Shown here: piece by piece, positions 822 through 58,387 of the stretch
How positions within the stretch are numbered: position 1 is the first letter of the stretch
How the letters are laid out: the number at the start of each line of letters is the position of its first letter
Assembly (NCBI GenBank): GCA_964016885.1
Contig: OZ024747.1
Location: 64,170,001 to 64,234,000 of the forward strand
Reading direction: 5' to 3'
DNA length: 64,000 nucleotides
Source: Eledone cirrhosa
Taxonomy: Eukaryota
Position numbers and translations under genes: made by a program
The notes under the pieces: model-generated
Databases searched by the model: none
Seen by the model: only the letters and a program-made list of their open reading frames with translations
Told to the model about the DNA's origin: nothing

Positions 822-1165
822 ATTTATTAAAATAACAGATTAAAGTTTAAGCAAAGAATCGCTGCTTTCACCCTTAACGGGATCTTCTGAAACTAACAAA
901 GTCAATCTGTAAACGCAGAACTGGATATTTCAAAAAACGTTGCAACCGGAGGAAGACAGGAAGACGATACTTTGGTTCGTGGAAACGTTCGCTGGCAAAG
1001 AACGGGAAAAAACGAATAATACGTCATTAATAGGAGCGGTTTCTTTGCTTAAACTTTAATCTGTTATTTTAATAAATATTTGCTCTACGGTTCTTATATA
1101 TTTGATATATATTTATCCTTATCGAGCCCTCTTTGGATTTTAGTCTTCAATTTTATTATTATTAC
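822..1165. mobile_element. TA-flanked inverted-repeat element (37 bp IR, tail on the right)
   Basis: Perfect IR 822-858 / 1041-1077. Tail hairpin GCTC..GAGCCCT at 1082-1130. The spacer is similar to 37270-37365. Flanked by (TA)n on both sides. Confidence 0.7.
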
Positions 1166-1227
1166 TATATATATATATATATATATACACCATACAAAAG
1201 ATTGTGTTTAGCAAACATTAATTACTC

Positions 1228-1534
1228 ATCCCGCCGAGGTTGACTTTGCCTTTCATCCTTACGGGGTCGATAAAATAAAGTACCAGTAATGCACTGAGTA
1301 ATTGCTGGCCTTGTGCCTAAAGTAGAAACAATTAATTACTCAATGAAGGGCGGTGGATTGGCAGTATCGGTAGAGGGTCGGACGCCATGCTTTCCAGCAT
1401 AGTTACGTCCCTTTACGATCTGAGTTCAAATCCCACCGAGGTTGACTTTGCCTTTCATCCTTACGGGGTCAATAAAATAAAGTACCAGTAATGCACTGGG
1501 TAATTGCTGGCCTTGTGCCTAAAGTAGAAACAAT
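1228..1534 (+). mobile_element. Two tandem SINE S1 copies (5'-truncated 1228-1333; full 1348-1534)
   Basis: S1 consensus. TSD attaattact(c/t)aatgaa around the second copy. Confidence 0.85.
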
Positions 1535-1990
1535 TAATTACTTAATGAATAGTTTAAAGTGAGTCCTACATTTCATACCCAGGCTTATCCTTTACATCAG
1601 GTATGGAATTATTGTTAACTTGTTGGTGAGGAAAATATTACATTTGGCTCTGGGTTTATTACTAGGGGTTTACGGGTCTATATTTGAAATATAGCATCAG
1701 CCTCTTGGGTATTGCATGGATATATTACCAGTCTTGTCCTACATTATACACCTGGCGGGGGATCATTACTAGTTTTTGTGCTTATATTTCACATTACCCT
1801 TGAGCTATCACCAGATATGGTGGGCGTGGTCTACATTTTGCATCTGACCAAGACATATTTTCAGATATGGTCTGCACGGCCATGTACGTGTCGAACTAAA
1901 CGCTGAATAAATCGGCTAAAATGTTTCTTGTAAGCTTTTCCCATAAGACACAAGCATATTGCAAGCATTCAACTAAGTGTTACTAACTAA

Positions 1991-2354
1991 TAATTGTTTC
2001 TACTTTTAGCACAAGGCCAGCAATTACCCAGTGTATTACTGGTACTTTATTTTATCGACCCCGTAAGGACGAAAGGCAAAGTTAACCTCGGCGGGATTTG
2101 AACTCAGATCGTAAAGAGACGTAACTACGCTGGGAAGCATGTCTGACCCTCTACCAATACTGCTAATTCACTAATAATTGTTTCTACTTTTGGCACAAGG
2201 CCAGCATTTATCCCAGTGTATTACTGGTACTTTATTTTATCGACCCCTTAAGGATGAAAGGCAAAGTTAACCTCGGCGGGTTTTGAACTCAGTCCGTAAA
2301 GGGACGTAACTGCCTGCAAAGCATGGGGTCCGACCCTCTTCCGATACTGCCAAT
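1991..2354 (-). mobile_element. Two tandem SINE S1 copies
   Basis: Reverse complement of S1, twice (aattgtttctacttt..gcacaaggccagc..gaaaggcaaagttaacctcggcggg..ccctct..atactgc). Confidence 0.85.
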
Positions 2355-3194
2355 AATTGCCATTGAAATGTATTGATTTCTTACTCACCATTAAGTTCGC
2401 GTTTTTAAATATATTAACACTAACATAAACTGTTAAATTTGAATCCACTTCGATGACTCCAAATATATGAGGAATATGCCGTATCATTATCTTAACAGAC
2501 ATTGTAATCACAAAATGTATTGTCATTGAGAAAATAGAAGCATTAAATTAAAATACTATAAAATATTAAAACTTGAAATTCGTAAATAGATTATAAGATC
2601 TTCAAACATGTGATGTGACTAATGAAATAAATAACCAAAAATTATATGAATATATATAACATTTCAGCAATTCTGAAGGAAATGAAAAGTCATGCATCGG
2701 AGATATTCAGGTATATTCTAGATAAATAAAAAATGAATTAAAGGACTAATATAACAGAAGAAAAGATGATATTTTCTGCTTTTTACTTGAGGCCATTATT
2801 CCGAGAATGAATAGAAAGAATACATAATGTTAGCAGAAACAATGGCAAGAGAGAAAACGAGTAACTCCTCCAAGAATAGCAGCCGGAATAACAACTAGAA
2901 ACAGCTACACGATTTGCAAGAACTGACTAGAACAACACTAAAACATGCTTTTAAATATACACGCAATAGTGGAATATATATTAAAAATATACATGCTCAT
3001 ATACTCATATATATTAATTAAAATATACATGCTCATATGCACATATATACAATATGTGTATGAACATACATTTAGTCTCGCTGTGAGTATTTTAAGCTGT
3101 GATCACATCATAACGTTCTCCGCATCGGTAAAAGAGAGTTAGGTGCATGTATTTTACTGTCATTACAGTTGTCAAAACATCGATGTAAGCTGAC

Positions 3195-3600
3195 GGCGGT
3201 GGATTGGCAGTATCGGTAGAGGGTCGGACGCCATGCTTTGACGCATAGAGTTACGTCCCTTGCCATTCTGAGTTCAAATCCCGCCAAGGTTAACTTTGCC
3301 TTTCATCCTCATGGGGTCGATGAAATAAAGTACCAGTAATGCACTGGGTAATTGCTGGCCTTGTGCCAAAAGTAGAAACAATTAATGAATATTAATATAT
3401 AATTAATTAAGGGCGGTGAATTGGTAGCATCGGTAGAGAGTCGGACGCCATGCTTTGACGTATGGAGTTACGGCCCTTGCCATTCTGAGTTCAAATACCG
3501 CCGAGGTTAACTTTGCCTTTCATCCTTACGGGGTCGATAAAATAAAGTACCAGTAATACACTGGTGAATTGCTGGTCTTGTGCCAAAAGTAGAAACAATT
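3195..3600 (+). mobile_element. Two tandem full-length SINE S1 copies
   Basis: A/B boxes and S1 tail in both. Each is followed by aatgaatattaatatat. Confidence 0.85.
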
Positions 3601-55945: not shown

Positions 55946-57160
55946 TTATAAACCCAACATGTACGATGTCGGTATCTACACAGCGTAAACCGTATCCTAT
56001 TAATTAATACTGCAGCGGACGCTCATATGTGGCACCCCTGGTAACATTATGTAAAAAAGAGGCTGATATATTGACGCAGTCAATAACACGAACTGTTGAT
56101 ATTCCAACAAATTCTGCGTACAAACTTTGATGAGTTCCACCAGGTTAATAATACCCAAGATATGTCTCTACAGTACTTATGTGTTTTCATCCGGAGTTAC
56201 AGATCCGTACATATATACAAGCGTACTGTACACTGGCTAAAAGCGAAGCCACCTAACTGCGAAGAACATTTTCACATCACTCAGCCATACAACAAACGTT
56301 CTTGCAATGCACGCGTTCTTGCTTTCCTCTGTAAAATAGACTTTTCCTTTTTAAGCAAATAACATTTGTGAGATTCAGCTCAGGTTAACTGTAGGAAAAT
56401 ATAGTGATATATTAATGGGAATCTTATACAGTGAATCTCTTTTTTTATTGTGTTTAAATCAAACATAAGCTGAAAATAAAAAGTGAGCAAAGACAGACAA
56501 AATAGATGAAGTGAATTTATGAATCAAAGGGATTCAGTAAATTGAAGATTTAACACTTCTTATGGAGAAAGATAAAGTATATCAGTATCATGTTTGGAAA
56601 AAATAATGAGTATCTAAGAGAAAAATATCAAAGAAAAACCCGAAAACCACTAGCGTTTGAAGTGTTCAAATGTTATATGTTGAAATATGTTATTAGGTAT
56701 AGATTGAAGTAAAACATTTTAGAAATATTTATCATATATTGTGTTTTTACATTATTATGAAGTGTTGTAAATTTTTGAAGAATTTTTCTAGATGAGAATG
56801 AAAACAATTCTTAGCAAATGATTAAATACCATGAGAGACAAAAGTGAAAATCTCTCCCCCAGAAATAAACAGAGAGAGAGAGAGTGAGGGATGGGAGGGC
56901 GAGAGAGAGTGTTATATGTTTGTATGTATATATATATCTATATATATAGATAATTATTGACACAGTGCTGGGCCCATGGTACCATATGTCGACAGGTGTA
57001 GTGTTTGTACCAGAGTTTTCAAGTCGCTGGCTGGACAAGGGAGTCGCACTCGTTCAGCGCGTCGGTGGGGGTTCTCCTACATGGATGTAAAGTAGTGGCC
57101 GTACTCGAAAAACGAGTTGGCAGCCGCCATATATATAGATATATATATATATATATATAT

Positions 57161-57355
57161 AACGAAGGTATTGTGGTAAGGAACCAGATGGACCATAACG
57201 CACCAGAGTATTCAATACCTAGGGTAGTAGAGTGGGTAATAGGAAAAGGTATGACCCCGACGGCAGAGCTCAAGCCCTTTCGACGGCTATTTCTGGACCA
57301 GAAATGGCCGTCGAAACGGCTTGAGCTCTGCCGTCGGGGTCATACCTTTTCCTAT
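57161..57355. mobile_element. Family C fold-back element (58 bp arms, 1 nt spacer)
   Basis: Palindrome 57239-57355 centred at 57297. GAAA 57313-57316, stem III CGGC..GCCG, GUC 57333-57335. Tail hairpin 57207-57233. (TA)n on both sides. Confidence 0.8.
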
Positions 57356-57397
57356 ATATATATATATATATATATACAAATATATATATATATATAT

Positions 57398-57802
57398 GTA
57401 GGAGGTGAGTTTTATTGTAGTACAATAAAGCAATGGAGATATCGGATAAGAAGCACTCTACAGTTTGTAGGACTGGAGTATACATAATATATAAGATCAA
57501 AAGATGGTTAAAGAGGTTCCATGTATTTTATTATGCGCATTTCAAAAACAAACATCATCATGCAATAATATTTGTGTTTTCATCAGATAAAACAGGAGGA
57601 CATGATATGAAGGCTAAAAAACACTTGTGGATATGTTGATTTAAAACTGCACTATCCACAAGTGTTTTTTAGCCTTCATATCATGTCCTCCTGTTTTATC
57701 TGATGAAAACACAAATATTATTGCATGATGATGTTTGTTTTTGAAATGCGCATAATAAAATACACGGAACTCCTTTAACCATCTTTTGATCTTATATATT
57801 AT
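57398..57802. mobile_element. Family B fold-back element, most complete copy; intact hammerheads at 57694-57760 (+) and 57526-57592 (-)
   Basis: 86 bp tail (hairpin 57452-57479), arms 57484-57633 / 57653-57802, CTGATGA 57700-57706, GAAA 57743-57746, ATGCGCAT-A. Confidence 0.9.
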
Positions 57803-58033
57803 ATATATATATATATATATATATTTCGTTTCTGAATTTGTTTAGCAAGATTCTTTATCTGAAAACGTGTGTTGAAACCGATATCATATACTTTGGGATG
57901 GTCATGTTGCCAATAAGAAACACACGCACCAGTTGCTTTCACTTCAATTTATTATAATAAATTTATAAATTTAGGAATTTATAAATTTCCTGTTGTTTGG
58001 TTGGTTCCACAACCAGATGATTGTTTATATATT

Positions 58034-58387
58034 GTCAAAGTTCTTTCGTCACACATTCTGTGACGCTTCAGTGACTGGGGGTTCTTTTCTTTGGTTTTTT
58101 TAATAGAAAACATGAGTAGAACAGCAACATCACAACTTACAATTAAGGACAAAATGAAAACACACACGCACATAGAACAAACAACCAACCAGTAACATGT
58201 AAATAAACAAATAAATAAACGAATATAAACACACACAGACACCCGGATGTAACACATGCGCAAACTAAGCACACAACGCACACACAAAAACAAGATGGCG
58301 TAGGACAGAACAAAGGAGAGGCACAAAAAACAAAGAAAAGAACCCCCAGTCACTGAAGAGATCACATACTGTGTGACGAAAGAACTC
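58034..58387. mobile_element. Inverted-repeat element with hammerhead-like motifs in both ~62 bp arms
   Basis: IR 58039-58100 / 58325-58386. Plus strand CTGAAGA(58353-58359) g.tcaca..tgtgac GAAA GAAC TC. Minus strand gtca CTGAAGC gtcaca..tgtgac GAAA GAAC TT tgac. Confidence 0.65.

What the first reader, a model, noticed from the sequence alone, without database searches (positions are those of the whole stretch)
822..58387. Superfamily of non-coding, hammerhead-bearing fold-back elements that live in (TA)n microsatellites
Seen: at least 10 TA-flanked inserts from sequence-unrelated families share one asymmetric layout, (TA)n-tail-long arm-fold-short inverted arm-(TA)n. They are at 822-1165, 3901-4133, 13288-13790, 16203-16657, 16990-17152, 34180-34523, 55033-55328, 57161-57355, 57398-57802 and, less cleanly, 25556-26087, 35626-36585 and 58034-58387. 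Type I HHR motifs (CUGANGA..GAAA..UH with pairing stems) read outward from the fold. Established: Penelope-like elements carry minimal HHRs in their pseudo-LTRs, often have a 5' inverted pLTR lacking the 3' tail, and some (Neptune clade) insert in microsatellites. Inference: these are miniature non-autonomous PLE/retrozyme-like retroelements, or pLTR-only insertions, mobilised in trans. The density and the many unrelated families look uncharacterised, although the components are known.
Basis: partly seen in the sequence, partly recalled or inferred. Interest (0 to 1): 0.9.

Follow-up and report, generated by a model that had tools for sequence, protein, structure and literature searches.

The report
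Folded-back stubs of Penelope-like retrotransposons
The TA-flanked hairpin inserts are real and are short head-to-head stubs of the ends of many protein-coding Penelope-like retrotransposon families; one end almost always carries an extra tail and the other does not, likely because two cut DNA strands each prime copying from a different start site on the element's RNA.

Summary
The inserts are real, but they are not a new non-coding superfamily. The 12 listed loci fall into 10 repeat families. Eight of them run, in longer copies elsewhere in this 3.0-Gb genome, into Penelope-like element (PLE) coding sequence (reverse transcriptase and/or C-terminal GIY-YIG nuclease). Six are Hydra-clade, a seventh by similarity, and two are Neptune/Nematis-like; one is unassigned. 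An inverted, tail-less end copy, (TA)n targeting and hammerheads are published PLE features. Hammerhead motifs: 10 found against 0.6 in shuffles, complete in only 5 of 12 listed inserts, and they do not set the fold.

New observations:
- The tail sits on exactly one end in 67 of 70 unselected pairs.
- One fold junction recurs at 69 loci on at least five template haplotypes, with variants shared by both arms.
- Minis of three families are as close to long copies as to each other.

Best reading: twin-primed reverse transcription from two RNA start sites, with the minis being run-off by-products of autonomous transcripts (inferred). About 1.7e5 insertions are estimated for seven families. Known kind; a useful test bed for the unsolved PLE integration mechanism.

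The parts
822..1041 (-). Family G tail-less arm (Hydra pLTR, sense on minus); complete variant hammerhead, core CAGAAGA at 889, cleavage after U
1041..1165 (+). Family G short sense arm (37 nt) plus 87-nt tail
3902..4005 (-). Family A tail (65 nt) and short arm, ending 1 nt past the hammerhead cleavage site
4029..4137 (+). Family A tail-less sense arm with complete type I hammerhead at 4053
13288..13790 (.). Family D fold-back: tail of about 170 nt plus arm (13288-13624), tail-less arm (13629-13790); no intact hammerhead in this copy
16203..16660 (.). Family E fold-back: 84-nt tail plus arm (16203-16477), tail-less arm (16471-16660); hammerheads at 16391 (-) and 16556 (+)
16990..17152 (.). Family C fold-back with a shorter tail variant; only the 3' half of the hammerhead; right flank not TA
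25556..26085 (.). Family H inverted pair from a PLE with a CX4CxxC linker (Neptune/Nematis-like); same end on both sides; candidate U3:A8 minimal hammerhead near 25740-25780 (-)
34180..34528 (.). Family B fold-back: 81-nt tail plus arm (34180-34417), tail-less arm (34417-34528); both arms carry the same core change GAAA to GAAT
35621..36585 (.). Family I: long tail-less arm, then a 67-nt sense arm and a tail of about 40 nt; hammerhead-shaped motif with two core deviations; no ORF link found
55033..55331 (.). Family F fold-back: 71-nt tail, two hammerheads with CCGACGA core (55201 -, 55217 +); relative of family A
57161..57355 (.). Family C fold-back: 78-nt tail plus arm, tail-less arm; fold lies inside hammerhead stem II, so the 5' half of the core is absent
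57398..57807 (.). Family B fold-back with the recurrent junction (57624-57657); 81-nt tail; hammerheads at 57586 (-) and 57700 (+)
57825..58400 (.). Family J fold-back (CX4CxxC-linker PLE): tail of about 60 nt plus arm (57825-58099), tail-less arm with a deletion after the hammerhead (58100-58400)
12039..12165 (.).
15731..15812 (.). Further family B mini (about 12 nt of tail plus a tail-less arm), not listed
40088..40284 (+). Solo tail-less family B arm between TA tracts, with complete hammerhead at 40176, not listed

Best explanation
These inserts are short, head-to-head copies of the terminal repeat (pLTR) of at least eight protein-coding Penelope-like element families, mostly Hydra-clade, likely made when the element's nuclease nicks both strands of a (TA)n tract and each nick primes reverse transcription from a different one of two fixed start sites on the element RNA. 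Shown: two sharp outer ends per family (site 1 = end of the tail, site 2 = base of a tail hairpin); one of each per insertion; both arms carry the same template variants; the arms continue into RT/GIY-YIG ORFs in long copies. Inferred: the two cDNAs run towards the RNA 5' end, stop, and are joined by a few bases of microhomology, giving a palindrome with a tail on one side. Also inferred, and weaker: the minis with a recurrent inner boundary arise when copying starts in the 5' pLTR of an autonomous transcript and runs off its 5' end (a start site inside the pLTR). The hammerhead is inherited pLTR sequence that was copied uncleaved and does not set the fold.
For: ORF links: B (808-aa frames in L143 and L153), E and A, D and G, C, H and J. 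Of 457 TA-flanked outer ends, 242 fall at site 1, 192 at site 2 and 23 elsewhere. Tail on exactly one end: 67 of 70 unselected pairs (p about 1e-16 against 50%), 216 of 228 pairs in all, 10 of 10 ORF-bearing B copies with both ends in view, 67 of 69 junction copies. In 7 of those 10 long copies the short inverted arm has the tail that the long arm lacks, which fold-back copying of one sense-templated cDNA cannot give. At eight diagnostic columns minor variants sit in both arms of a copy, and inside the arm no arm-specific base change is shared by more than 3 copies. The same junction occurs on at least five haplotypes, four of which also occur at the 3' end of ORF-bearing copies; the commonest one also occurs in two long copies. 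B position 259 is joined to several different partners and holds 6 of 14 unselected tail-less ends; C 134-146 holds 22 of 33. In vitro, a PLE protein cleaves and extends both strands, starts at two internal sites that bound the tail, and uses uncleaved RNA (PMC11167929). Only 5 of 181 unselected inner ends of families A-F lie within 5 nt of the cleavage site.
Against: No biochemistry or RNA data here; twin priming and the start-site reading are inferred from insertion anatomy. The boundary hot spot is strong only in B and C; it is weak in E (4 of 20) and not seen in unselected copies of D (1 of 4) or G (1 of 28). The boundary motif is only a pyrimidine followed by A; I saw no consistent TATA element upstream. 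In family C minis are closer to each other (2.1%) than to long copies (4.2%) over 48 columns, which allows a mini-specific lineage, although the long copies were chosen by a biased query. Only 14 of 32 tailed ends in the unselected sample had a detectable partner. An antisense self-priming model (PMC3846280) also fits the majority polarity. F and I have no direct ORF link.
Confidence: 0.68

Rival explanations
1. The minis are non-autonomous PLE derivatives or retrozyme-like elements with their own master copies, mobilised in trans and copied as whole fold-back units.
For: One exact junction at 69 loci. The commonest junction haplotype (33 of 69) was absent from 23 sampled ORF-linked 3' pLTRs. 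C minis cluster together. pLTRs suffice in trans (PMC3846280), and non-autonomous PLE derivatives are known (PMC8557442; bioRxiv 10.64898/2026.07.22.740005).
Against: Unit copying predicts inherited arm-specific variants and one tail polarity; instead arms are concordant and both polarities occur (60 to 7). The junction sits on several haplotypes shared with ORF-bearing copies. Minis of B, E and G are as near to long copies as to each other. Most folds differ from copy to copy.
Confidence: 0.15
2. The palindrome forms by self-priming: one strand folds back on itself and is extended, on an antisense template as proposed for rotifer PLEs.
For: Proposed in PMC3846280. Short overlaps at the folds. 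An antisense RNA with a fixed 3' end would give the majority class (loop on the tail-less arm).
Against: On a sense template it cannot put a tail on the second arm when the first lacks it (7 of 10 long copies; 60 of 67 junctions). On an antisense template it needs a second rule for the opposite polarity. The in vitro work used a sense pLTR-ORF RNA and found two start sites.
Confidence: 0.13
3. They are MITEs or foldback DNA transposons that target TA repeats.
For: Inverted arms and TA flanks; TA-targeting DNA transposons exist in plants (search listing).
Against: The ends are asymmetric, the arms are truncated at variable points and continue into RT/GIY-YIG ORFs, and they carry hammerheads.
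Confidence: 0.01
4. The palindromes are long-read or assembly artefacts.
For: Fold-back chimeras are a known long-read artefact (recalled). No single read spanning a window junction was shown.
Against: The arms differ by up to 18%. The same junction lies in about 65 different flanks. Illumina reads from two runs filed under another study code contain arm-to-inverted-arm joints of other family E copies, the same joints in both runs.
Confidence: 0.01

Closest known systems
Hydra-clade Penelope-like elements (Craig et al. 2021, PMC8557442; includes Hydra-1_Obim)
   Same: Single ORF with RT and C-terminal GIY-YIG, RWK-like and DKT motifs, CxCX5C linker, hammerhead near the 3' end, (TA)n targets. 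The GCTC...GAGCAC tail hairpin is also visible at the 3' end of Hydra-2_Amil in their supplement.
   Different: The paper lists few families per host (one for an octopus); here seven occur in 64 kb. Family B unit is about 3.7 kb, not under 3 kb. Tails are 65-171 nt, not 30-40. Twelve short motifs from these families were not found in that supplement (wrapped FASTA lines can hide matches).
Canonical PLE insertion anatomy: inverted 5'-truncated pLTR and a tail often at one end (PMC8557442 Fig. 2; PMC3846280)
   Same: Exactly this layout.
   Different: Here it is counted: one tail per insertion in 67 of 70, either polarity, with recurrent inner boundaries. Much of the output is ORF-less.
PAc Poseidon element in vitro (Frangieh et al. 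2024, PMC11167929)
   Same: Two internal RT start sites bounding the tail, AT-rich targets, both strands cleaved and extended, hammerhead cleavage not needed.
   Different: Different clade; the parts I read do not assign one start site to each strand or explain the inverted arm.
Minimal hammerheads of metazoan PLEs (Cervera and de la Pena 2014, PMC4209133)
   Same: Type I motifs with palindromic stem III, U3:A8 core variant (family C, candidate in H), opposite-strand pairs 100-700 bp apart.
   Different: Stems II here are long (up to about 50 nt, longer in D); family C has a stable stem III.
Non-LTR retrozymes (bioRxiv 10.64898/2026.07.22.740005)
   Same: Type I hammerhead, pLTR-related, no ORF in the short form.
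   Different: Retrozymes are tandem head-to-tail repeats; these are single head-to-head pairs with ORF-bearing parents.
L1 twin priming (recalled, paper not seen)
   Same: Two target nicks prime two cDNAs, giving an inversion.
   Different: In L1 the two segments do not overlap; here both arms copy the same RNA segment from two fixed sites.

Membership tests
Hydra-clade PLE | Single ORF, RT then C-terminal GIY-YIG nuclease | tested here: met
   808-aa frames in L143 and L153; RT and/or nuclease pieces beside A, C, D, E, G arms. Pfam and PDB found no match; Atlas look-alikes at 0.95-0.98 carry HTH_animal, GIY-YIG or RVT_1 on part of their members.
Hydra-clade PLE | RWK motif and DKG changed to DKT | tested here: met
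   RLRWI, RIRWR, LRWR; SDKT in L153, L211, L260
Hydra-clade PLE | CxCX5C linker, no CCHH, CxxC and CxH late in the nuclease | tested here: met
   CNCPVKNKC, CNCRNKSNC, CSCRKPDEC, CNCPDRSTC; CNLC and CLH/CKH, read by eye
Hydra-clade PLE | Canonical hammerhead near the 3' end | tested here: met
   Complete in reference copies of A, B, E; core variants in C (U3:A8), F, G; D has an interrupted stem I
Hydra-clade PLE | Insertion into (TA)n | tested here: met
   52 of 57 ends against 9.8% background
Hydra-clade PLE | Generally under 3 kb | tested here: not met
   Family B unit is about 3.7 kb in L153 because of a long 3' UTR; the paper gives this as a tendency
Hydra-clade PLE | Placement in an RT tree with published Hydra proteins | not tested
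   No reference proteins were held as session sequences; compared only by eye with supplement text
Neptune/Nematis PLE (families H and J) | CX2-5CxxC linker before a C-terminal GIY-YIG with CCHH | tested here: met
   CGRPNCGIC (H), CIDKKCITC (J); Neptune versus Nematis not resolved
PLE insertion anatomy | Inverted truncated pLTR, tail at one end | tested here: met
   not met for H, whose two ends are alike
Naiad PLE | N-terminal nuclease, no canonical hammerhead | tested here: not met
   C-terminal nuclease and hammerheads present in A-G, H, J; family I untested for lack of an ORF link
Non-LTR retrozyme | Tandem head-to-tail hammerhead units | tested here: not met
   Single inverted pairs in the copies printed; no genome-wide tandem search was run
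Non-LTR retrozyme | Circular RNA intermediates, self-cleavage | not testable with these tools
   Needs RNA data or an assay
MITE / TIR DNA transposon | Symmetric terminal inverted repeats, fixed length, transposase parent | tested here: not met
   Asymmetric ends, variable folds, RT parents

The most novel reading that the evidence does not exclude
PLE integration is obligatorily two-primed: one target strand is extended from the tail end and the other from the base of a clade-wide hairpin. Tens of thousands of ribozyme-bearing mini-hairpins in this genome are run-off ('strong-stop') products from the 5' pLTR of autonomous Hydra transcripts, so their recurrent folds map the elements' transcription start sites. 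This would account for the inverted pLTR and the one-sided tail of PLEs in general.
Probability: 0.5. Interest if true: 0.65.

Novelty: new member of a known kind. Interest (0 to 1): 0.45.

Why it matters
How PLEs make their inverted ends, one-sided tails and microsatellite bias is named as an open question by Craig et al. 2021. This genome holds an estimated 1.2-2.4e5 insertions of seven Hydra-type families, including copies 97-99% alike and open frames of 800+ codons. The one-tail rule and the recurrent junction turn the question into sharp predictions for an in vitro assay. It also shows that Hydra elements, described from a few dozen families, can be a major repeat class, and that short hairpin repeats of this kind would be misfiled as MITEs or microRNA-like hairpins by automatic tools.

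Tried and rejected
Rfam scan: only hairpin-driven microRNA-type matches, all below gathering score among the 150 shown. Hammerhead cleavage as the cause of the fold: rejected, 5 of 181 unselected ends near the site in A-F; G was scored against a mis-parsed site and is left out (corrected parse). Naiad origin: rejected by domain order. Match to published Naiad/Chlamys/Hydra consensi: 12 motifs, none found. Pfam, PDB: no match for the Hydra ORF; the second protein given was probably the J ORF but I did not check its frame. No Pfam match for five window ORFs. No PLE coding remnant in the window by tblastn. Tail hairpin stability: significant only in A (z -2.8), so the case rests on the shared motif, not on energy. 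Linking family I to the Hydra ORF in L260: unrelated sequence and a TA tract lie between, so not accepted. L143 as a boundary example: its arm ends near 246, not 259; dropped. Sequencing runs: no RNA holder listed. Reads laid on 57398-57802 did not show a read spanning that junction with both arms. Earlier scan findings: none. Literature: seven searches; none of the PLE papers listed holds 'twin priming' or 'twin-priming'. Subscription papers (e.g. Arkhipova 2006), Repbase and Dfam could not be searched, so prior annotation of these families is not excluded.
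Full report
Setting. The window is 33.6% GC and dense in (TA)n. It lies on contig C7 of a 3.0-Gb assembly. Its SINE-like repeats resemble octopus SINEs; that is recalled, not tested. It holds no PLE coding remnant.

Observation. All 12 loci have inverted arms beside TA tracts. 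A strict hammerhead descriptor found 7 motifs against 0.25 in shuffles; with core variants allowed, 10 against 0.57. Eight of the ten lie in five listed inserts, one in an unlisted family B copy (40176) and one alone (9016). The other seven listed inserts have half, mutated or only candidate motifs. The 12 loci form ten families, here A (3901), B (34180, 57398), C (16990, 57161), D (13288), E (16203), F (55033), G (822), H (25556), I (35621) and J (57825). Each of the eight that I searched has hundreds to thousands of first-look candidates, which are not copy numbers. F and I were studied only through copies met by chance.

What they are. Longer copies continue into coding sequence. Family B: 5' pLTR and tail, a short leader, an 808-aa ORF, a 3' UTR of about 1 kb and a 3' pLTR (L143, L153). 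A protein search scored 76 copies at 89% identity or more, many with open frames over 800 codons. A, E, D, G and C lead to related ORFs. These show the marks that Craig et al. give for the Hydra clade (section read): RWK-like and DKT motifs, a CxCX5C linker and no CCHH. That clade is reported to target (TA)n and to carry hammerheads, and has an octopus member. H and J lead to PLEs with a CX4CxxC linker, Neptune- or Nematis-like. F is assigned through 73-78% identity to A. I stays unassigned. I did not build an RT tree with published references.

Abundance. In 59 evenly spaced 10-kb stretches (590 kb), seven families gave 33 tailed ends, or about 1.7e5 insertions genome-wide (Poisson range 1.2-2.4e5). 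Nine were tight fold-backs, about 4.6e4 (2.1-8.7e4). The window is about 2.5 times richer than that sample. Only 14 of 32 tailed ends had a detectable partner, so the mini fold-back is one common outcome, not the only one.

Two ends, one of each. Among 457 TA-flanked outer ends, 242 map to the tail end and 192 to a second site 65-171 nt upstream. In most families a motif RCTC...GAGY begins within a few bases of the second site. The same hairpin is visible in the coral element Hydra-2_Amil. Pairs carry one end of each kind: 67 of 70 pairs met incidentally, 216 of 228 in all (the rest include query-biased loci), and 10 of 10 ORF-bearing B copies with both ends in view. In 7 of those 10 the tail is on the short inverted piece. 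J also has two fixed ends; H does not.

A recurrent junction. The fold at 57624-57657 occurs exactly at 69 places, with 0 for the reversed control. Four are tandem duplicates on C9 and two unplaced copies share flanks, so about 65 are independent. The tail is on the truncated arm in 60 and on the loop-bearing arm in 7; one has no tail and one a partial tail. Subfamily variants are present in both arms of a copy (for example 14 TT and 50 CC against 2 discordant at column 156). The junction sits on at least five haplotypes, four of them shared with 3' pLTRs of ORF-bearing copies. So both arms were copied afresh from one template at each insertion, and the junction re-formed repeatedly. The same inner boundary is joined to other partners too and holds 6 of 14 unselected tail-less B ends; C has 22 of 33 at its boundary, E 4 of 20, D 1 of 4, G 1 of 28. 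In the G search set, 10 of 24 copies left the natural sequence at or within 2 nt of the point where the window copy does (read). The boundaries read pyrimidine then A, as a polymerase II start would; this is suggestive only.

Autonomy. Median nearest distances mini-to-long equal mini-to-mini in B (0.7%), E (0.6%) and G (1.7%). In C they are 4.2% against 2.1% over 48 columns with a biased long set. A separate non-autonomous lineage is therefore not needed for B, E and G and remains open for C.

Hammerheads. The stems differ completely between families while pairing and core are kept, including a U3:A8 core in C, a variant reported for PLEs. Inner ends do not gather at the cleavage site. Copies pass through an intact ribozyme, and 34180 carries a broken core in both arms. 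This fits the report that uncleaved RNA is the substrate. Activity was not tested.

Mechanism. Established for another PLE in vitro: both strands cleaved and extended, two internal start sites bounding the tail. Inferred here: each strand takes one site, the two cDNAs meet head to head, and copying from the 5' pLTR runs off the RNA end to give minis. Self-priming on a sense template fails on tail polarity. Antisense self-priming fits the majority class only. Whole-unit copying fails on arm concordance unless arms are re-homogenised each round.

Reality. Arms differ by up to 18%. Illumina reads from two runs under a different study code show arm-to-inverted-arm joints of other family E copies. 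The window's own junctions were not spanned.

Papers seen. PMC8557442: passages, sections 11 and 15, supplement parts 1, 2, 52 and three supplement searches. PMC11167929 and PMC4209133: first two of four parts. bioRxiv 10.64898/2026.07.22.740005: first two of five parts, no supplements. PMC3846280, PMC13282606, PMC8969392: passages. PMC3088659: listing only. L1 twin priming and Arkhipova 2006: recalled or cited second-hand. The layout, the TA bias and opposite-strand hammerhead pairs are in print. I did not find the one-tail count, the recurrent junction or a twin-priming model for PLEs in the searches made; subscription papers, Repbase and Dfam were out of reach.

Verdict. New families of a known kind. 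Interest 0.45.

Noticed in passing
window 9011-9115 (+): Lone type I hammerhead outside any TA element (CCGATGA core, 5-bp stem I, palindromic stem III as in Penelope-1_SK of the Craig supplement, long stem II). No other copy among the fetched loci; perhaps an old Hydra remnant, or chance.
   Followed up: partly
window 33606-33890: Symmetric 140-nt fold-back, 94% complementary, without TA flanks or tail; no other copy among the fetched loci; MITE-like or unrelated.
   Followed up: partly
window 12474-12565: Short perfect palindrome centred on a (TA)n tract, with unique arms.
   Followed up: no
window 4155-4215, 37264-37463, 26966-27084: Further short TA-flanked repeat pieces: a divergent family C relative, a family G 3'-UTR piece, and an unassigned repeat with copies in L128 and L252.
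   Followed up: partly
window 1200-3600: Cluster of SINE-like repeats in both orientations, giving long inverted repeats; resemble octopus SINEs (recalled).
   Followed up: no
L105, L113, L115, L196, L207, L211: Short pLTR arms joined directly to internal ORF positions, some with internal deletions, consistent with two cDNAs of very unequal length being joined.
   Followed up: partly
L116, L117, L130, L367, L374: Elements of different families insert next to each other in the same TA tracts, forming stacks of PLE ends.
   Followed up: no
G000:C4:351.9-352.3 Mb (L134-L136, L138, L141) and C9:5.40-5.42 Mb (L303, L304): Family B copies repeated at about 28-kb and 3-4-kb spacing, probably segmental tandem duplications rather than new insertions.
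   Followed up: no
L143, L153 ORF: The 808-aa Hydra protein has an asparagine-rich stretch between RT thumb and nuclease, like the N-rich inserts described for rotifer PLEs, and has no Pfam match.
   Followed up: partly
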